In this document: positions 61 to 4,707 of the stretch, piece by piece | How positions within the stretch are numbered: the stretch's first letter is position 1 | Layout: each line of letters opens with the position of its first letter | Source: a virus | Taxonomy: Duplodnaviria > Heunggongvirae > Uroviricota > Caudoviricetes | IMG/VR virus record: IMGVR_UViG_2695420523_000008 | Length of the DNA: 4,707 nucleotides | Direction: 5' to 3' (one strand) | Made by a program: the position numbers and the translations under genes | Notes under the pieces: model-generated | Seen by the model: the letters and a program-made list of their open reading frames with translations, nothing else | Database searches by the model: none | Told to the model about the DNA's origin: nothing

Positions 61-366
61 CTATTCATGCTCTTTGACCTTGCGTCGCTGGAGTTCTTCA
101 CGCGCGACGGTGACGAGTTGCCCGATCTCCTCGGCTGCTTTGATGCCGATTTGTTCGACCTTAGCCAGGGCATCCAGTGACGACACAAGGGGATTTTCTC
201 CGCTGCCTTCTGCTTGGCGGCGGGCTATTTCTCCGCGCATGGCGGTTACGATAAATCCGGCATTGCTTTCACCGTCCAGCTTAACGGATTCCATCCCTTG
301 CATAACATCTAGTGGGACTCTGACAGTTGTCAGTTGTGATTTTGCGTTTTTGTTAGCCGTTGCCAT
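61..366 (-). CDS. Putative ribbon-helix-helix (Arc/Mnt/CopG-like) transcriptional repressor, 101 aa
   Basis: ORF 61..366 on minus strand. AGGAG Shine-Dalgarno (complement of 375-379) lies 8 nt upstream of the ATG (complement of 364-366). The segment TTVRVPLDVMQGMESVKLDGESNAGFIVTAMRGEIARR fits the RHH pattern of beta-strand, helix, G-x-S-x-N turn, helix. It is transcribed divergently from the rightward operon and sits next to the palindromic operator-like sites. Family assignment is by motif pattern only. Confidence 0.6.
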   Translation of the reverse strand: MATANKNAKSQLTTVRVPLDVMQGMESVKLDGESNAGFIVTAMRGEIARRQAEGSGENPLVSSLDALAKVEQIGIKAAEEIGQLVTVAREELQRRKVKEHE

Positions 367-387
367 TTCTGAAACTCCTAATCATCG

Positions 388-465
388 GTGTGTTTCAGTA
401 TACACAAAAAAAGAAATACAAAAAGCCTTGACGTGTGTTTCATGCGCTCATAACATGAAACACAC
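388..465. promoter_or_regulatory. Operator-like sites: three copies of GTGTGTTTCA, including a perfect 12-bp inverted repeat
   Basis: GTGTGTTTCATG at 433-444 and its exact reverse complement CATGAAACACAC at 454-465, separated by a 9-bp spacer; a third copy of the half-site GTGTGTTTCA at 388-397, followed by the palindrome GTATAC at 398-403. The sites overlap the -35/-10 of the rightward promoter and the candidate -10 of the leftward promoter. Confidence 0.55.
428..456 (+). promoter_or_regulatory. Sigma70-like promoter for the rightward operon
   Basis: TTGACG at 428-433 (5/6 match to TTGACA), a 17-bp spacer, then TAACAT at 451-456 (4/6 match to TATAAT, with the conserved T1, A2 and T6 present). 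About 100 nt upstream of the first rightward start codon. Predicted from consensus only. Confidence 0.45.
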
Positions 466-493
466 CGAAAGGATTGTTGAAATACAAAGAGCA

Positions 494-527
494 ACGCCCC
501 GCAGTGCTGGGAACACATACGGGGCGT
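494..527 (+). other. Stem-loop in the leader of the rightward operon (8-bp GC-rich stem, 18-nt loop)
   Basis: ACGCCCCG at 494-501 pairs with CGGGGCGT at 520-527. No U-tract follows, so it is not a canonical intrinsic terminator. It lies between the predicted promoter and the first SD/ATG at 546-559. Confidence 0.3.
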
Positions 528-556
528 CTAACCAACAACGTAAACTAGGAGCCGTT

Positions 557-754
557 ATGGTTGCTGTAAATCATATACCACACCTTGTACACACACAAAC
601 GGCCTTTGTGTGGCGTTTTCTGGCACTGAGTGCCGGAGAATCTCAAATCATCCACGTAACCGCCTGGACGGAACGCGAAGCGCGTAGCCGTTGCCCGTCC
701 GGTTGTGTTGCTGTATTCGCTGCAAAAATCCGCCAGGGAGTGAGTCATGCTTAA
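557..754 (+). CDS. Hypothetical small protein, 65 aa (first gene of rightward operon)
   Basis: TAGGAG at 546-551, 5-nt spacer, ATG at 557. This is the in-frame 3' part of the long open frame 2..754, whose 5' part overlaps the better-supported minus-strand gene. Stop TAA at 752-754 overlaps the next start by 8 nt. A resemblance to Icd-like small proteins of P4-type elements is only a vague recollection and is unverified. Confidence 0.4.
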   Translation: MVAVNHIPHLVHTQTAFVWRFLALSAGESQIIHVTAWTEREARSRCPSGCVAVFAAKIRQGVSHA

Positions 755-932
755 AACCTTCCGTGTATTTGCCCGAGCTGTTAACCCAATAGGCCACACA
801 ATTGGTATCGCTCAGAATGTGAAGGCTGTTAATGTTCAGACGGCTATTGCTGCGGTGAGAAGCGAATCATCAGAATATGGCTTATCACAAGTCATTATTT
901 CAGCAGTGTATGAATTAAAAGAGGTGCATTAA
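747..932 (+). CDS. Hypothetical small protein, 61 aa
   Basis: ORF track 747..932. GGGAG at 736-740 precedes ATG 747 by 6 nt. Its stop TAA at 930-932 overlaps the next ATG at 932 (TAATG), indicating translational coupling. Confidence 0.5.
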   Translation: MLKTFRVFARAVNPIGHTIGIAQNVKAVNVQTAIAAVRSESSEYGLSQVIISAVYELKEVH

Positions 933-1123
933 TGCAGGAAATTACATTACACGAAGCCGCTGAACGTGCGCACCAGACAGAAATTATTTGCCGCCTTCTT
1001 GAGGTATACCCGAACAAAATTACAGATGCTGATATATCCGCACTGGCGAGCCTACTGGCGCGTCTTTCGGGAAGTGTCGCTAGTTTTTTGATTGAGGAAG
1101 AAAGTAAGCTGGTGGGGGATTAA
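932..1123 (+). CDS. Hypothetical small protein, 63 aa
   Basis: ORF track 932..1123. GAGGTG at 921-926 with a 5-nt spacer to ATG 932. Its stop TAA at 1121-1123 is immediately followed by the next ATG at 1124. Confidence 0.5.
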   Translation: MQEITLHEAAERAHQTEIICRLLEVYPNKITDADISALASLLARLSGSVASFLIEEESKLVGD

Positions 1124-1345
1124 ATGAATACAGAACGGGAAGTCTTTTTTAAATTGTTAGCATGTGCAGAAAGTTCATTAACTTTAAATAATTCAGCAAA
1201 AGCAATATTAAATATGTGGCTTGATTGCATAAATGACAATGAAGATGCAAATATTGCTTATGGCCTGTTGTCACTTATTGATGAATCAGCAGAAAAACTC
1301 AATGACGCAATAAATAGTGCCCTGCTATCAAATAAGTCGAGTTAA
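1124..1345 (+). CDS. Hypothetical small protein, 73 aa, encoded by a markedly AT-rich segment
   Basis: ORF track 1124..1345. G-rich SD-like GGTGGGGGA at 1111-1119 just upstream. The first 60 nt contain 19 G+C, roughly one-third GC, against about half in flanking genes. Protein is rich in N, L, S, D, E, A. Confidence 0.5.
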   Translation: MNTEREVFFKLLACAESSLTLNNSAKAILNMWLDCINDNEDANIAYGLLSLIDESAEKLNDAINSALLSNKSS

Positions 1346-1362
1346 GTCGAGGAATAAATAAT

Positions 1363-1662
1363 ATGGAAATGAAAAATTCTGGCTTTATTGCCAGCGGCCC
1401 CGCTCGACCTGAATTTATGAACGACGATATTTACCGCGATAAATACGGCGGCACGGTAACGATTAAAGGCGTGGCAGAACGGCGCATCACTTACCGCCGT
1501 GAGGGGTATAGCTATGACTGCGTGATGCCTGTTTATCAGTTCCGGCGTGATTTTTCCCTGGTATATGCCGCACCCCGCAGTAAGCCCATCAGCAGGGAAA
1601 AAGCGTGGGGAAATATCCAGAAAATGAAAACCATGATTAACGGATTCAGAGGTAAAAAATGA
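1363..1662 (+). CDS. Hypothetical protein, 99 aa, translationally coupled to the replication gene
   Basis: ORF track 1363..1662. AGGA at 1350-1353 about 9 nt upstream of ATG 1363. Its stop TGA at 1660-1662 overlaps ATG 1659 of the next gene (ATGA). The antisense ORF 1342..1692 is rejected in its favour. Confidence 0.55.
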   Translation: MEMKNSGFIASGPARPEFMNDDIYRDKYGGTVTIKGVAERRITYRREGYSYDCVMPVYQFRRDFSLVYAAPRSKPISREKAWGNIQKMKTMINGFRGKK

Positions 1663-3413
1663 AACTGGCACCGAACGTAAAACAGCAGTCACGCGGCATA
1701 AAACACAAAGGAACAGAAGTCATTATTTTTGCGGGTAGTGATGCCTGGGCACACGCGAAACAATGGCAGGAACATGATGCGCGTATGGCCGGAGATAATG
1801 AGCCTCCTGTGTGGCTTGGGGAGCAGCAGCTATCCGAACTGGATAATCTGCAAATTGTGCCGGAAGGCCGAAAATCAGCACGCATATACAGGGCCGGATA
1901 TCTTGCGCCTGTAATGATAAAGGCGATTGGTCAGAAGCTGGCGGCAGCAGGCGTACAGGATGCAAATTTTTATCCTGAGGGTATGCACGGCCAGGAGGTG
2001 CAGAACTGGCGCGAATATCTGGCCCGTGAACGCCAGAATCTTTCTGATGGTCTGGTCATTGAGCTTCCGGTAAAGCAAAAGGCGCAACTTTCGCAGATGG
2101 CGGACAGTGAGCGCGTGCAGTTGCTTGCCGATCGCTTTGATGGCGTTTGCGTACATCCTGAAAGTGAAATCGTTCACGTATGGCGCGGCGGGGTATGGTG
2201 TCCGGTCAGCACAATGGAACTTAGCCGCGAAATGGTGGCGATCTATTCAGAGCACAGGGCCACTTTCAGCAAGCGCGTAATCAATAACGCCGTGGAAGCG
2301 TTAAAAGTTATTGCCGAACCAATGGGCGAGCCGTCTGGCGATTTGCTGCCGTTCGCCAATGGTGCGCTTGACCTGAAAACGGGGGAATTTTCCCCGCACA
2401 CGCCGGAGAACTGGATCACCACGCACAACGGCATTGAGTACACGCCACCAGCACCAGGGGAGAACATCCGCGATAACGCGCCAAACTTTCATAAATGGCT
2501 TGAGCACGCAGCCGGAAAAGACCCGCGCAAGATGATGCGTATATGTGCCGCGCTGTACATGATTATGGCGAACCGGTACGACTGGCAGATGTTTATTGAG
2601 GCCACCGGAGACGGCGGGAGCGGTAAAAGTACATTCACACACATAGCCAGCCTTCTGGCAGGGAAACAGAACACGGTAAGCGCTGAAATGACATCGCTTG
2701 ATGATGCTGGTGGACGTGCGCAGGTTGTCGGGAGTCGTCTTATCGTCCTGGCTGACCAGCCGAAATATACAGGCGAAGGAACGGGCATCAAGAAAATCAC
2801 AGGCGGCGACCCCGTGGAAATTAACCCGAAATATGAAAAGCGTTTCACGGCGGTAATCAGGGCGGTGGTGCTGGCGACCAACAACAACCCGATGATATTC
2901 ACCGAACGGGCCGGAGGTGTGGCACGTCGTCGCGTGATTTTCCGTTTCGACAATATCGTCAGTGAGGCCGAAAAAGACAGGGAGCTACCGGAAAAGATTG
3001 CGGCTGAAATCCCCGTTATTATCCGCCGATTGCTGGCGAACTTTACCGACCCTGAGAAGGCACGGGCTTTACTACTGGAACAGCGTGACGGTGATGAAGC
3101 ACTGGCAATAAAGCAACAGACGGATCCGGTTATTGAGTTTTGCCAGTTCCTGAATTTTCTAGAGGAAGCGCGCGGCCTGATGATGGGTGGCGGTGGTGAT
3201 TCAGTGAAGTACACGACCAGGAACAGCCTTTACCGCGTCTATCTGGCGTTTATGGCATACGCGGGCAGGAGCAAACCGCTAAACGTGGCTGAGTTCAGCA
3301 AGGCCATGAAGCCAGCGGCGAAAGTTTACGGGCATGAATATATTACGCGAAAAGTTAAGGGAGTAACGCAGACCAACGCAATTACAACAGACGATTGCGA
3401 CGCGTTTTTATAA
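1659..3413 (+). CDS. Replication initiator with SF3-helicase core (P4 alpha C-terminal / D5-like family), 584 aa
   Basis: Long ORF 1659..3413. Walker A GDGGSGKST at residues 317-325 (nt 2607-2633); Walker B-like LIVLAD at residues 361-366; motif C VVLATNNN at residues 403-410. The roughly 40-residue spacing A to B to C is typical of SF3 helicases. AGAGGT SD lies about 6 nt upstream of the ATG. The N-terminal ~300 aa has no motif I can confidently assign to a primase class. Confidence 0.88.
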   Translation: MKLAPNVKQQSRGIKHKGTEVIIFAGSDAWAHAKQWQEHDARMAGDNEPPVWLGEQQLSELDNLQIVPEGRKSARIYRAGYLAPVMIKAIGQKLAAAGVQDANFYPEGMHGQEVQNWREYLARERQNLSDGLVIELPVKQKAQLSQMADSERVQLLADRFDGVCVHPESEIVHVWRGGVWCPVSTMELSREMVAIYSEHRATFSKRVINNAVEALKVIAEPMGEPSGDLLPFANGALDLKTGEFSPHTPENWITTHNGIEYTPPAPGENIRDNAPNFHKWLEHAAGKDPRKMMRICAALYMIMANRYDWQMFIEATGDGGSGKSTFTHIASLLAGKQNTVSAEMTSLDDAGGRAQVVGSRLIVLADQPKYTGEGTGIKKITGGDPVEINPKYEKRFTAVIRAVVLATNNNPMIFTERAGGVARRRVIFRFDNIVSEAEKDRELPEKIAAEIPVIIRRLLANFTDPEKARALLLEQRDGDEALAIKQQTDPVIEFCQFLNFLEEARGLMMGGGGDSVKYTTRNSLYRVYLAFMAYAGRSKPLNVAEFSKAMKPAAKVYGHEYITRKVKGVTQTNAITTDDCDAFL

Positions 3414-3426
3414 TTTTTTGTAAAAG

Positions 3427-3650
3427 CCATCTACCCCATCTACCTGAACGAAATAAACGCATATTATTCAACATGATAAGTGGGTATAGGGCTAGGTAGA
3501 AGGCTAATAAAAGCTCTCTACCTCTTCTACCTGATTTTATCAGTTTCAGGTAGCAGGGTAGACGGCAGGTAGAGGAGTCAAAAAAGCTATCTACCCGCTG
3601 AAAGCCGCGCCATTACTGACATGATGAGCATTCGGGTAGATGGGTAGAGG
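3427..3650. repeat. Iteron array; candidate origin of replication for the element
   Basis: GGTAG on the top strand at 3495, 3549, 3557, 3568, 3635 and 3643, and CTACC at 3431, 3440, 3518, 3527 and 3591: 11 copies in about 220 bp, where about 0.4 would be expected by chance for one 5-mer on either strand. A perfect tandem 9-mer CCATCTACC x2 at 3427-3444 is mirrored by the inverted pair GGGTAGATGGGTAGAGG at 3634-3650. AT-rich stretches at 3446-3490 and 3504-3513 lie between repeat clusters. Located directly 3' of the helicase gene. Confidence 0.6.
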
Positions 3651-3698
3651 GGGGGAGGCACAACTAAAAACTTTTTAAACGAGGGGGGGTGAAAATAA

Positions 3699-4013
3699 AT
3701 GCGCATACATAAAAATCACTTAACAAACATGCCAGCCGAAAACATGAATCAGGGGCGACAAATGACCAAAATTCGCAGAGACAGAACACAGGCAAAATAT
3801 AAAGCGTTAGACATGACAGAGCTTTCCTTAAAGGTGGCAATCAAAGCGATAGACCACCACACACGGGCAGGATACGCGAAGGAACATCCCGACCTGATAA
3901 GCGCATTCATGACCACAGCAGCGGCAAACTTTGCCACGCTGACAGAACGGGAGATTGCCGAAGCGGAACAGGTGACAACCATCAATGTTAAAACCGGAGA
4001 GCAGACAGCATGA
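3699..4013 (+). CDS. Hypothetical protein, 104 aa (alternative starts possible at 3729, 3744 or 3762)
   Basis: ORF track 3699..4013. A G7 tract at 3683-3689 sits 9-16 nt upstream of ATG 3699 as a possible SD; the internal ATG at 3762 has its own AGGGG SD. Its stop TGA at 4011-4013 overlaps ATG 4010 of the SSB-like gene (ATGA). No recognisable motif. Confidence 0.5.
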   Translation: MRIHKNHLTNMPAENMNQGRQMTKIRRDRTQAKYKALDMTELSLKVAIKAIDHHTRAGYAKEHPDLISAFMTTAAANFATLTEREIAEAEQVTTINVKTGEQTA

Positions 4014-4432
4014 CAGCACAGATAGCGGCTTACGGGCGGCTGGTGGCTGACCCGCAGTTAAAGACCACCAGCAAAGGGACACAAATGGCGATGGCGAGTA
4101 TGGCGGTTCCCCTGCCGTGCAGCCAGGCAGATGACGGAACGGCGACGATGTGGTTATACGTCCTGGCGTTTGGCAGACAGGCCGACGCACTGGCAAAACA
4201 CCACAAAGGCGAACTGGTGAGCGTGGCGGGTAACATGCAGGTAAGCCAGTGGACAGGCCAGAACGGCGAAACGCGGCGGGGCTGGCAGGTTATCGCAGAC
4301 AGCGTAATCAGTGCGCGAACGGCGCGACCGGGCGGCAAAAAAGGCCAGCAGGGGCAGGCCACTGACGCACTGAACAGGGCAAAACAACAGTCGGGGAATG
4401 ATGATCCGTACGGCGATAATATACCGTTTTAA
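4010..4432 (+). CDS. ssb: Single-stranded DNA-binding protein (SSB) paralogue, 140 aa, with host-like C-terminal tip
   Basis: The N-terminal ~110 aa aligns by eye with the OB-fold core of E. coli SSB: GRLVADPQL against GNLGQDPEV, and WLYVLAFGRQADALAKHHKGELVSVAGNMQVSQWTGQNGETRRGWQVIADSV against [52 protein letters not shown]. A short Gly/Gln-rich linker follows, and the C-terminus DDPYGDNIPF matches the acidic D-I-P-F tip of bacterial SSB. Confidence 0.8.
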   Translation: MTAQIAAYGRLVADPQLKTTSKGTQMAMASMAVPLPCSQADDGTATMWLYVLAFGRQADALAKHHKGELVSVAGNMQVSQWTGQNGETRRGWQVIADSVISARTARPGGKKGQQGQATDALNRAKQQSGNDDPYGDNIPF

Positions 4433-4449
4433 ATTCTGCAAACAAAAAG

Positions 4450-4478
4450 ATGCCGGAAAAAAATAGATTTTCCGGCAT
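4450..4478 (-). terminator. Hairpin with perfect 11-bp stem; intrinsic terminator on the minus strand, possibly bidirectional
   Basis: ATGCCGGAAAA at 4450-4460 pairs with TTTTCCGGCAT at 4468-4478 around a 7-nt loop. On the minus strand the hairpin is followed by a U-rich tract (complement of 4438-4449, CUUUUUGUUUG). On the plus strand it is preceded by an A-tract but lacks a downstream U-tract, so it is at best a weak terminator for ssb. Confidence 0.5.
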
Positions 4479-4592
4479 GCTACATAAATCCCGACCAAAG
4501 GAAGTAAATACATTAACACGAATTATCAGCACTGAAGTTGTTACGGCATATTTTATACAGCATTGCACTTGGTTGCATGTATTCGCATAGCA

Positions 4593-4707
4593 GGTAATGA
4601 CTCCAACTTATTGATAGTGTTTTATGTTCAGATAATGCCCGATGACTTTGTCATGCAGCTCCACCGATTTTGAGAACGACAGCGACTTCCGTCCCAGCCG
4701 TGCCAGG
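4593..4707 (-). mobile_element. IS1 insertion sequence, terminal 115 bp including the right inverted repeat; continues beyond the window
   Basis: GGTAATGACTCCAACTTATTGATAGTG from 4593 matches the IS1 terminal inverted repeat as I recall it, and the following sequence through 4707 matches the IS1 insB-proximal end. Recognised from memory of the IS1 sequence, not searched. Confidence 0.88.
4608..4707 (-). CDS. insB: IS1 transposase InsB, 3' end (partial; start lies outside the window)
   Basis: Minus-strand translation of 4706..4608 gives [32 protein letters not shown] followed by a stop (TAA, complement of 4608-4610), 15 nt inside the IS1 end. Absent from the ORF track because no start codon lies within the window. 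Confidence 0.8.

What the first reader, a model, noticed from the sequence alone, without database searches (positions are those of the whole stretch)
4010..4432. Element-encoded SSB with a conserved host-like C-terminal tip, coupled to an unknown upstream ORF
The SSB C-terminal tip is the docking site for many host genome-maintenance proteins (for example the Pol III chi subunit, PriA, RecQ, exonuclease I). A mobile-element SSB that keeps the D-I-P-F tip but has a shortened linker could support the element's own replication or compete with host SSB for partners. The ATGA overlap with the 104-aa ORF suggests the two act together.
Basis: partly seen in the sequence, partly recalled or inferred. 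Interest (0 to 1): 0.55.

Follow-up and report, generated by a model that had tools for sequence, protein, structure and literature searches.

The report
Phage-satellite (PICI) SSB gene, already annotated
The ORF is a genuine single-stranded-DNA-binding protein belonging to the replication module of a well-known E. coli phage satellite (an EcCICFT073-type PICI); it is common, already annotated and ordinary in kind, although nobody has tested what it or its small upstream neighbour does.

Summary
ORF 4010-4432 encodes a real 140-aa SSB. It passes Pfam and TIGRFAM cut-offs, has a confident OB-fold model (residues 1-103) with a disordered tail, and all top-50 PDB fold matches are bacterial SSBs. 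Two details need correcting. The tip is N-I-P-F, not D-I-P-F (family consensus DDP[Y/F]xDxIPF). The upstream ORF is 83 aa (start 3762), not 104.

The window is the replication zone of an EcCICFT073-type phage-inducible chromosomal island. Its Pri is 97.6% identical to EcCICFT073 Pri and it has the same TCTACC iteron origin (3430-3648). An IS1 is inserted at 4594. The ORF83-ssb module occurs in 1869 of 5426 complete E. coli genomes, including both prototype satellites (EcCICFT073 and the cf-PICI EcCIEDL933). RefSeq annotates the gene, and the HE-PICI paper lists SSB as a replication gene.

In E. coli satellites, 74 of 77 loci have ssb after ORF83, 62 with the 4-nt overlap. But ATGA follows automatically from the Met-Thr start. 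ssb occurs without ORF83 in other genera, and ORF83 relatives mostly lack ssb. Neither gene tracks the replicase type.

Most likely it is an auxiliary fork SSB that recruits host replisome proteins through its tail. Function is untested. Known kind, low interest.

The parts
4010..4432 (+). ssb: 140-aa satellite-encoded SSB. OB fold = residues 1-103 (4010-4318), disordered linker = 104-130 (4319-4399), acidic tip DDPYGDNIPF = 131-140 (4400-4429), stop 4430-4432.
   Evidence: Pfam/TIGRFAM/PDB matches; AF2 model; Foldseek hits; tip statistics; dN/dS 0.14-0.25.
3762..4013 (+). ORF83: 83-aa helical protein of unknown function (phrog_1231). The maximal ORF from 3699 is not supported. Conserved motif ID..(F)G.GYA..HP(E/D)L(I/V).AFM.TAA.(N/D)F.
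   Evidence: phrog_1231 E=1.1e-48 over residues 22-103 of the 104-aa ORF; alignments; 595 representatives at E<=1e-3; no Pfam, PDB or PADLOC match; low-confidence helical-hairpin model.
3996..4001 (+). GGAGAG Shine-Dalgarno sequence of ssb, 8 nt before the ATG, embedded in ORF83 codons T-G-E. The ATGA stop/start overlap is at 4010-4013.
   Evidence: Read directly from the sequence. The -4 overlap is kept in 62 of 74 loci. Purine-rich SD-like sequences precede ssb in loci that lack ORF83.
3427..3651 (.). Satellite replication origin: 10 exact TCTACC/GGTAGA iterons (plus degenerate copies) in alternating orientation, with AT-rich stretches.
   Evidence: All 10 sites fall in 3430-3648; about 1 expected; 0 of 200 shuffles reach 10. 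Repeats listed. Same layout (11 copies) in EcCICFT073, whose pri-ori is an experimentally shown replicon.
1659..3413 (+). pri/rep: 584-aa replicase. Residues 195-432 = SF3 helicase (D5_N/DUF5906); 488-576 = P4-alpha-type origin-binding winged helix; 1-190 unassigned (no recognisable primase domain).
   Evidence: Pfam and NCBIfam; PDB 7OLA and 1KA8; N-terminus without a Pfam hit; 97.6% identical to EcCICFT073 Pri.
1363..1662 (+). DUF4222 gene, overlapping pri by 4 nt.
   Evidence: PF13973 E=4.9e-23. It precedes all three replicase types in related islands.
4450..4478 (.). 11-bp-stem hairpin just after ssb. The T-run is on the minus-strand side only.
   Evidence: sequence.
4594..4707 (.). End of an IS1 element inserted between ssb and the satellite's capsid gene.
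   Evidence: 100% match to IS1A/IS1B ends in 4958 genomes. Collinearity with the intact island ends at 4593, 56 bp before the capsid ATG.

Best explanation
The gene is the satellite's own replication-fork SSB. The window is the replication zone of an EcCICFT073-type phage-inducible chromosomal island.

Proposed sequence of events. After helper-phage induction, the rightward AlpA-driven operon is transcribed through DUF4222, pri, the ori, ORF83 and ssb; no sigma-70-like promoter is detected between pri and ssb. Pri is an SF3 helicase with a P4-alpha-type origin-binding domain. It binds the TCTACC iterons and unwinds the origin. The SSB coats the exposed ssDNA through its OB fold, which keeps the Trp54, Phe60 and Trp88 equivalents of E. 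coli SSB. Its disordered acidic tail ending ...D-x-I-P-F docks host proteins that read the SSB C-terminus (Pol III chi, DnaG, PriA and others). This plugs a foreign helicase into the host replisome and adds to the SSB pool while helper and satellite amplify together.

It is an auxiliary, portable cassette, not an essential or replicase-specific partner. ORF83 is a separate small helical protein that is usually co-translated with it in E. coli satellites; its role is unknown.

Shown: SSB identity and architecture, satellite context, origin, linkage statistics, purifying selection. Inferred: expression route, host-partner docking, auxiliary role.
For: SSB identity and architecture. W48, F54 and W81 are invariant in the family and align with E. 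coli W54, F60 and W88. Satellite context: a copy identical across the matched genes lies in an int-HTH-BroN-Icd-DUF4222-pri-ORF83-ssb-capsid-decoration-terS island. The same module is in EcCICFT073 and in the cf-PICI EcCIEDL933. Origin; the EcCICFT073 pri-ori replicon was demonstrated experimentally. PMC10111431 places Primase, SSB and DUF5906 in the PICI replication zone, colocalised with the ori. Selection: OB dN/dS 0.14-0.25; between alleles the tip is 90% identical and the linker 30%. Host-facing, not replicase-specific: both main SSB alleles occur with RepA-type, D5_N-type and DUF927-type replicases, and CFT073 and EDL933 share an allele despite unrelated replicases and iterons. Auxiliary: the paper describes the cloned EcCICFT073 replication region as the rep gene plus the putative ori; ssb is naturally deleted or truncated in a few islands. 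No promoter-like site in 3380-4707. [quoted passage not shown]
Against: No experiment on any PICI ssb exists in the papers I searched. Tail-partner binding is inferred from motif resemblance only. Position -4 is Asn here, not Asp. 15 of 74 alleles carry ...ISF, the equivalent of the partner-binding-defective ssb-113 (P176S; phenotype from my own knowledge). Klebsiella homologues end ...YDDDF. Host SSB is abundant, and the cloned pri-ori already replicates, so the benefit of an extra SSB is unclear. I did not verify the exact boundaries of the published pri-ori clone. Oligomeric state is untested, and His55 of E. coli SSB is not conserved.
Confidence: 0.55

Rival explanations
1. Interference weapon. 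The satellite SSB binds ssDNA and host partners but fails to support, or actively poisons, the helper-phage or host replisome. This would favour satellite replication, as phage SPP1 G36P does to the Bacillus subtilis replisome.
For: SPP1 G36P supports the phage fork but blocks host replication even when host SsbA is saturating. The satellite SSB has a divergent OB domain (28% identical to the host's), a half-length linker of different composition, and a variable -4 tip residue. EcCICFT073 strongly interferes with lambda, and deleting its capsid-like genes c1499 or c1500 did not relieve this. This SSB clade is absent from 50,697 phage genomes, so it is satellite-specific.
Against: PICIs depend on the host replisome themselves. 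EcCIEDL933, which carries the module, is reported to have negligible effects on helper fitness. ssb is lost in some islands without obvious replacement. The known E. coli PICI interference mechanism is packaging redirection (Rpp; abstract of PMC6739421).
Confidence: 0.15
2. Obligate two-protein unit. ORF83 and SSB form a complex (for example ORF83 as a mediator or loader that lets the self-loading helicase get onto SSB-coated ssDNA), and translational coupling sets their stoichiometry.
For: 74 of 77 E. coli-type loci keep the pair, 62 with the 4-nt overlap. The pair moves together behind three unrelated replicases. The half of ORF83 adjacent to ssb is almost invariant. 12 of the 22 divergent ORF83-like loci examined sit just after a large (at least 700-aa) protein, shown to be a primase-helicase in all seven sampled.
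Against: ssb occurs without ORF83 in four other genera and in some E. coli. ORF83 occurs without ssb. Among the 22 divergent ORF83-like loci, only one had an SSB beside it; six had an antiterminator Q gene and one a PolA+UDG gene. A third gene can sit between them. ATGA is forced by the Met-Thr start, and part of ORF83's C-terminal conservation is the ssb ribosome-binding site.
Confidence: 0.15
3. Counter-defence or ssDNA protection unrelated to fork progression. Examples: shielding satellite ssDNA intermediates, or masking ssDNA from immune systems that sense phage SSB or SSB-presented ssDNA (Retron-Eco8, DARNA, Hna, AbpAB).
For: Several defence systems respond to phage SSBs or to ssDNA presented by them but not by host SSB. 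Satellites commonly carry defence and counter-defence cargo (abstracts).
Against: The gene sits in the conserved replication zone next to the ori, not in the variable accessory hotspots. There is no PADLOC match. No data link bacterial-type OB-fold SSBs with an IPF tail to anti-defence.
Confidence: 0.08
4. Decaying passenger gene with no current function.
For: Occasional deletions, frameshifts and ssb-113-like tips. This particular island copy is damaged by IS1.
Against: dN/dS 0.14-0.25 across genera and a conserved tip. The module is present in 1869 of 5426 complete genomes, with at least 80% of the pair covered in 1438.
Confidence: 0.03

Closest known systems
EcCICFT073 (prototype Gram-negative PICI): the 136-aa SSB and 85-aa hypothetical protein that precede PerC and capsid gene c1499
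   Same: Same module and order: DUF4222, 584-aa Pri (97.6% identical), TCTACC-iteron ori, ORF83 homologue, 4-nt overlap, ssb. It has the same capsid and head-decoration late genes as the intact relative of the window.
   Different: ORF83 is only 68.7% identical and SSB 70.6% identical. The linker is replaced (30% identity) and the tip is DDIPF rather than DNIPF. This window's copy carries an IS1 after ssb. The identical intact copy is embedded in a prophage portal gene (HE-PICI configuration) rather than between roxA and phoQ.
E. coli chromosomal SSB (PF00436/TIGR00621; structures 1EYG, 1EQQ)
   Same: OB fold, conserved Trp54/Phe60/Trp88 equivalents, a disordered linker, and an acidic tail ending I-P-F with an aromatic at -7 and Asp at -5.
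   Different: 28% identity. Trp40 and His55 are not conserved. The L45 loop is 5 residues shorter. The linker is about half as long. Position -4 is Asn. It is not essential to the cell, and it is carried on a satellite.
Phage SPP1 G36P (phage-encoded bacterial-type SSB)
   Same: A mobile-element SSB of the bacterial OB-fold type with a C-terminal tail. The SPP1 reaction requires an SSB with that tail. G36P serves the element's fork, which uses an element helicase plus the host polymerase.
   Different: G36P is 48% identical to its host's SSB and comes from a Gram-positive virulent phage. Its inhibition of the host replisome is demonstrated; nothing is demonstrated for the PICI protein.
MGE PolA-SSB primases of SCCmec and other Bacillota elements (PMC10061031)
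   Same: An OB-fold protein encoded next to a D5_N/DUF927-type self-loading helicase on an integrative element.
   Different: There the OB protein is a divergent, apparently monomeric subunit of a PolA-type primase. Here there is no PolA gene, and the protein is a canonical PF00436 SSB with an IPF tail.
phrog_1231 (for ORF83)
   Same: E=1.1e-48 with full-length coverage. All ten distant relatives sampled also hit only this family.
   Different: The family has no assigned function, no Pfam entry and no structure. The association with replicase/ori described here is a context observation, not a function.

Membership tests
Bacterial-type SSB (Pfam PF00436 / TIGR00621) | Sequence match above the curated thresholds | tested here: met
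   PF00436 57.4 bits (cut-off 26); TIGR00621 58.5 bits (cut-off 53.95).
Bacterial-type SSB (Pfam PF00436 / TIGR00621) | OB-fold beta-barrel | tested here: met
   AF2 residues 1-103, block pLDDT 81-93; top-50 Foldseek PDB hits are all SSBs, probability 1.0.
Bacterial-type SSB (Pfam PF00436 / TIGR00621) | ssDNA-contacting aromatic residues (E. coli W40, W54, F60, W88) | tested here: inconclusive
   W48, F54 and W81 align with W54, F60 and W88 and are invariant in the family. W40 aligns with Gln. Three of four are kept.
Bacterial-type SSB (Pfam PF00436 / TIGR00621) | Disordered linker followed by an acidic C-terminal tip ending in Pro-Phe | tested here: met
   pLDDT <50 for residues 104-140. The tip is DDPYGDNIPF, and IPF ends 107 of the 120 listed homologues. 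Variants ISF, APF, PPF and DDDF exist.
Bacterial-type SSB (Pfam PF00436 / TIGR00621) | Homotetramer; ssDNA binding; binding of chi, PriA, ExoI and others by the tip | not testable with these tools
   Needs biochemistry or multimer modelling. E. coli His55 (tetramer interface, from my own knowledge) is Leu here.
Gram-negative PICI (EcCICFT073 type) | pri/rep gene followed by an origin made of iteron sets with an AT-rich region | tested here: met
   Pri 97.6% identical to EcCICFT073 Pri; 10 TCTACC iterons against 11 in EcCICFT073, same layout. Criteria taken from the paper.
Gram-negative PICI (EcCICFT073 type) | int + alpA at the left end, unidirectional genes, a few phage late genes (capsid, terS) and no tail or lysis genes | tested here: met
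   Outside the window, but seen in the copy in NZ_CP098192 that is identical across the matched genes (99.9% identical over window 3600-4593): int, HTH, Bro-N, Icd-like..., capsid, decoration, terS. Criteria.
Gram-negative PICI (EcCICFT073 type) | Helper-phage-dependent induction, packaging and transfer | not testable with these tools
   Shown experimentally for EcCICFT073 only. This copy has an IS1 ahead of its late genes.
Helper-embedded PICI (HE-PICI) | [quoted passage not shown] | tested here: inconclusive
   True for the identical island in L001, where the portal gene is split at 6963-7796 and 18681-19463. The window does not reach the island ends, so its own insertion site is unknown.
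phrog_1231 (ORF83) | Profile match over the full length | tested here: met
   E=1.1e-48, residues 22-103 against profile positions 1-82 of 83.
Known anti-phage defence systems (PADLOC) | Match of SSB or ORF83 to any defence-system protein model | tested here: not met
   No hits at E<=0.01 for either protein.

The most novel reading that the evidence does not exclude
ORF83 plus ssb is a portable 'replisome adaptor' cassette that phage satellites place behind any self-loading helicase and origin (RepA-, D5_N- or DUF927-type). ORF83, a member of a large uncharacterised family that often follows primase-helicase genes, would mediate helicase or primase access to SSB-coated ssDNA. The SSB tail would recruit host Pol III and DnaG, or selectively starve the helper phage's fork. 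Natural tip variants (NIPF, DIPF, GIPF and ssb-113-like ISF) would tune which host partners are engaged.
Probability: 0.15. Interest if true: 0.55.

Novelty: already known. Interest (0 to 1): 0.22.

Why it matters
The SSB itself changes little. It is a canonical SSB in a known satellite family, annotated in RefSeq and listed as a replication gene in the HE-PICI paper.

What remains open is modest but real. No one has tested why roughly a third of complete E. coli genomes carry a satellite-borne SSB when host SSB is abundant and a cloned pri-ori region already replicates. No one knows what the phrog_1231 protein (ORF83) does; many of its relatives sit just downstream of primase-helicase genes.

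Because the module is present in both genetically tractable prototypes (EcCICFT073 and EcCIEDL933), clean deletions and tail mutants could quickly tell replication support from replisome competition.

Tried and rejected
- ORF83 structure: the AlphaFold model has mean pLDDT 62.7 and shows a helical hairpin. Foldseek against the PDB gave no match, and a profile search of PDB sequences gave only noise. The afdb50 library was unavailable. No fold-based function could be assigned.
- Pfam and NCBIfam on ORF83 and on ten distant relatives: nothing above noise.
- Rfam on the whole window at E<=0.1: no RNA family, so no P4-like CI/isrK immunity RNA in this stretch.
- PADLOC: no defence-system membership for any window protein; the only hit was a sub-threshold mad3 match on the helicase.
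- Hypothesis that ssb accompanies replicases lacking a primase domain: rejected. Klebsiella loci pair it with a full Zn-ribbon+Toprim+DUF927 primase-helicase.
- Hypothesis that SSB or ORF83 alleles co-vary with replicase type: rejected.
- Hypothesis that the SSB was recently captured from the host or from a helper phage: rejected. It is 28% identical to host SSB, and every match in 50,697 phage genomes is below 60% identity (27-36% among the hits listed).
- The first viral-contig scan with the ORF83 alignment returned only close relatives, so I repeated it with a distant lead sequence.
- Two 45-50-kb fetches of CFT073 missed the island before the third found it.
- Minus-strand ORFs that overlap ssb (4030-4362, 3828-4196, 4154-4519) were treated as spurious, because the plus-strand genes have homologues under purifying selection.
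Full report
**1. The observation**

The ORF at 4010-4432 (+) exists and encodes 140 aa. It is an SSB by every test available:
- Pfam PF00436, E=1.7e-15, 57.4 bits against a cut-off of 26.
- TIGR00621 above its cut-off.
- phrog_44 'single strand DNA binding protein', E=4e-39.
- Sequence matches to 26 solved SSBs.
- An AlphaFold model with a confident beta-barrel over residues 1-103 (block pLDDT 81-93) and a disordered tail over 104-140.
- Foldseek against the PDB, where all 50 best matches are bacterial SSB OB domains at probability 1.0.

Aligned with E. coli SSB, the protein is 28% identical. It keeps the equivalents of Trp54, Phe60 and Trp88, which are invariant across the family. It lacks Trp40 and His55 and has a shorter L45 loop.

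Two details in the finding need correcting.
- The window's tail is ...NDDPYGD-N-I-P-F, not D-I-P-F. Among the 120 listed homologues the last four residues are NIPF in 55, DIPF in 20, GIPF in 19 and EIPF in 11. The conserved pattern is DDP[Y/F]xDxIPF.
- The upstream '104-aa ORF' is only the maximal reading frame. The phrog_1231 profile covers residues 22-103, the longer N-termini of homologues are unrelated to each other, and PGAP starts the gene at the equivalent of window 3762. The product is 83 aa (3762-4013); I call it ORF83.

The ATGA overlap at 4010-4013 is real.

**2. What the window is**

The DNA is E. coli chromosomal. In NZ_CP098192 a copy identical across the matched genes lies in a ~10-kb island. 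Its gene order is integrase, HTH regulator, Bro-N, YlcI/YnfO (opposite strand), Icd-like, three small ORFs, DUF4222, 'primase', ORF83, ssb, major capsid, head decoration, HTH, terS. That island is inserted inside the portal gene of a lambdoid prophage.

This is the published anatomy of a Gram-negative phage-inducible chromosomal island in its 'helper-embedded' configuration (PMC10111431; PICI criteria).

I located the prototype EcCICFT073 in the CFT073 chromosome, between roxA and phoQ. It carries the same module: DUF4222, a 584-aa Pri, a ~290-nt gap, an 85-aa hypothetical protein, a 4-nt overlap and a 136-aa SSB, followed by PerC and capsid gene c1499.

The window's Pri is 97.6% identical to EcCICFT073 Pri. 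The Pri-ORF83 spacer contains the same iterons. All 10 exact TCTACC/GGTAGA sites in the window fall within 3430-3648, where about 1 is expected and 0 of 200 shuffles reach 10. EcCICFT073 has 11 copies in the same layout. The EcCICFT073 pri-ori segment was shown experimentally to drive plasmid replication.

Pri itself resolves into three parts:
- residues 195-432, an SF3 helicase (PDB 7OLA);
- residues 488-576, a P4-alpha-type origin-binding winged helix (PDB 1KA8);
- residues 1-190, with no recognisable primase domain.

The window ends in an IS1 element inserted at 4594, 56 bp before the satellite's capsid start codon.

**3. How common it is, and how well known**

The ORF83-ssb DNA is found in 1869 of 5426 complete E. 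coli genomes, and 1438 cover at least 80% of the pair. These include Nissle, O157:H7 strains and EDL933. In EDL933 the pair sits in EcCIEDL933, the prototype capsid-forming PICI, behind an unrelated DUF927 replicase.

RefSeq annotates the gene as 'single-stranded DNA-binding protein'. The HE-PICI paper explicitly files 'Primase, SSB and DUF5906' as the PICI replication category, colocalised with the origin.

None of the PICI papers I searched treats ssb or ORF83 functionally.

This SSB clade is satellite-specific. In 50,697 deposited phage genomes every match is below 60% identity; the hits listed are 27-36% identical, and most are from Staphylococcus and Streptococcus phages.

**4. Is ssb coupled to ORF83?**

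Within E. coli-type satellites the linkage is strong. Of 80 viral-contig loci with close ORF83 relatives, 74 of the 77 assessable have ssb immediately downstream, 62 of them with the same 4-nt overlap. Several facts weaken the reading that the two must act together.

- All ssb homologues begin Met-Thr (ATG ACN). 'ATGA' is therefore present whatever lies upstream, including in loci with no upstream ORF.
- ORF83's conserved C-terminal T-G-E codons (ACC GGA GAG) are the Shine-Dalgarno sequence of ssb, 8 nt before the ATG. ssb thus has its own ribosome-binding site, and part of ORF83's conservation is a nucleotide-level constraint.
- ssb occurs without ORF83, directly after the replicase, in Klebsiella, Leclercia, Pectobacterium and E. 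albertii and in E. coli ExPEC XM.
- ORF83 occurs without ssb in strain 88-3493 and in L072 and L081. L087 is an ssb'-perC deletion fusion and L060 is frameshifted.
- About 11 loci have an extra 101-aa ORF inserted between the two genes.

ORF83 is not an orphan. A profile search of 1.84 billion representatives finds 595 relatives at E<=1e-3. They share the motif ID..FG.GYA..HPEL(I/V).AFM.TAA.DF.

I examined 22 divergent loci.
- Upstream: in 12 loci the ORF83-like gene lies a few hundred nt downstream of a large (at least 700-aa) protein. All seven of these that I scanned with Pfam are primase-helicases of different architectures: DUF927+Toprim+Zn-ribbon, VapE+Prim-Pol, DUF5906, or Toprim+D5_N.
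- Downstream: the neighbour varies. It is a Q-antiterminator-sized gene in 6 loci (confirmed by Pfam in the three sampled), an SSB in 1, PolA+UDG in 1, and unidentified in the rest.

ORF83's most frequent neighbour is therefore a replicase and presumed origin, not SSB.

Neither gene co-varies with replicase type. In 85 E. coli-type loci the same ORF83 type follows RepA-type (45), D5_N-type (32) and DUF927-type (7) replicases, and both major SSB alleles occur with all three. CFT073 and EDL933 share nearly the same SSB allele despite unrelated replicases and iterons (TCTACC versus TAACCCGCA).

The window versus EcCICFT073 is the reverse case: the replicase is almost identical, but ORF83 (68.7%) and SSB (70.6%) have diverged. 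The two genes behave as shuffling cassettes of the replication zone.

**5. Is the SSB functional, and which parts matter?**

OB-domain dN/dS is 0.14-0.25 in comparisons that reach Leclercia and Pectobacterium. Between the two main E. coli alleles the OB domain is 78% identical, the linker only 30% (effectively replaced) and the last ten residues 90%. This is the classic SSB pattern, in which the fold and the docking tip are constrained and the linker is free.

The tip is still not rigid.
- 15 of 74 alleles end ...DDISF, the same Pro-to-Ser change as E. coli ssb-113 (P176S), which weakens partner binding (phenotype from my own knowledge).
- Other genera show ...DDQIPF...DDLPPF...SDDAPF and ...YDDDF.

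The constant features are an acidic run and a terminal Phe.

**6. Most likely mechanism (inference)**

After helper induction, the rightward operon is transcribed through pri, the origin, ORF83 and ssb; no sigma-70-like promoter is detected between pri and ssb. Pri binds the iterons and unwinds the origin. The satellite SSB coats the ssDNA, and its tail recruits host proteins that read the SSB C-terminus.

For P4-type replicons, host Pol III holoenzyme, SSB and gyrase are the host requirements (my own knowledge of P4 alpha-dependent replication). An extra SSB would also add to the pool when helper and satellite amplify together.

Three observations make an auxiliary, host-facing role more likely than a replicase-specific or essential one: the cloned replication region is described as rep plus ori (I did not check the clone's boundaries), ssb is occasionally lost in nature, and ssb alleles are independent of replicase type.

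The main rival is an SPP1-G36P-like competitive role. That phage SSB serves the phage fork, the reaction requires a C-terminal tail, and G36P poisons the host replisome even when host SSB is in excess. EcCICFT073's interference with lambda was not relieved by deleting its capsid-like genes in the 2018 study. However, EcCIEDL933 carries the module and is reported to have negligible effects on helper fitness.

I rate the explanations as follows: auxiliary fork SSB 0.55, interference 0.15, obligate ORF83-SSB complex 0.15, counter-defence 0.08, relic 0.03.

**7. Verdict**

The feature is real but ordinary. It is a canonical SSB, in a known position, in a known family of phage satellites. It is present in about a third of complete E. 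coli genomes, annotated in RefSeq, and mentioned in the literature as a replication gene.

The inference drawn from the ATGA overlap is weaker than it looked.

What is still unknown is the biological benefit of a satellite SSB and the function of the phrog_1231 protein. Both could be tested directly in EcCICFT073 or EcCIEDL933.

Noticed in passing
window 4594-4707: An IS1 (IS1A/IS1B-type) end starts at 4594. In the intact island the capsid gene's ATG lies 56 bp beyond the breakpoint, so this PICI copy has its late/packaging zone separated from the replication operon and is probably crippled for transfer.
   Followed up: yes
L001 6963-19463 (NZ_CP098192): The intact island, identical to the window across the matched genes, is inserted inside the portal gene of a lambdoid prophage (portal split into 6963-7796 and 18681-19463). 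This is the 'helper-embedded PICI' configuration. The window itself does not reach the island ends.
   Followed up: partly
L017-L096 (ssb C-termini); window 4421-4429 for comparison: 15 of 74 satellite ssb alleles end ...DDISF instead of ...IPF, the same Pro-to-Ser change as the classic E. coli ssb-113 allele. Many of these loci may be copies of one lineage, so the count is not a count of independent events.
   Followed up: partly
e.g. L054 5253-5563, L061, L068, L075-L079, L085, L086: About 11 islands carry an extra 101-aa ORF (MSEPKFGEK...GSLH) inserted between ORF83 and ssb, as a third optional cassette of the replication zone. I did not identify it.
   Followed up: no
L087, L060, L072, L081: ssb decay or loss. 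L087 encodes a fusion of the first 11 SSB residues to PerC (a deletion). L060 has a frameshifted ssb. In L072 and L081, ORF83 is followed directly by PerC.
   Followed up: partly
window 1363-1662 and 1659-3413; L014, L016, L015, L179: A DUF4222 gene overlaps the start of the replicase by 4 nt, and it precedes all three unrelated replicase types (D5_N, DUF927, RepA-helicase). The swapped unit therefore appears to be just the replicase plus ori, flanked by constant DUF4222 and ORF83/ssb.
   Followed up: no
window 1659-2228 (Pri residues 1-190): The N-terminal ~190 residues of the protein annotated as 'DNA primase family protein' match no Pfam domain and no solved structure. The recognisable parts are an SF3 helicase and a P4-alpha origin-binding winged helix. 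Whether this protein primes at all is open.
   Followed up: partly
L003, L005, L011 (Klebsiella) 8001-8444: Klebsiella homologues of this SSB end in ...P(L/P)YDDDF, with no I-P-F. They still have an acidic run and a terminal Phe. The Pectobacterium zantedeschiae copy (L010) is truncated to 126 aa and has no tail.
   Followed up: no
L111, L118-L120, L129, L134: In divergent elements the ORF83-like gene is followed by a phage antitermination-Q-like gene (PF06530 in the three loci sampled) instead of ssb. This places ORF83 relatives at the boundary between the replication genes and the late-gene regulators.
   Followed up: partly
window 4450-4478: An 11-bp-stem hairpin lies just downstream of ssb. 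Its T-run is only on the minus-strand side, with an A-run upstream on the plus strand, so it looks like a terminator for leftward rather than rightward transcription.
   Followed up: no
window 3500-4500: There is a strong A-over-T skew (AT skew 0.34-0.38) across ORF83 and ssb, well above the rest of the window.
   Followed up: no
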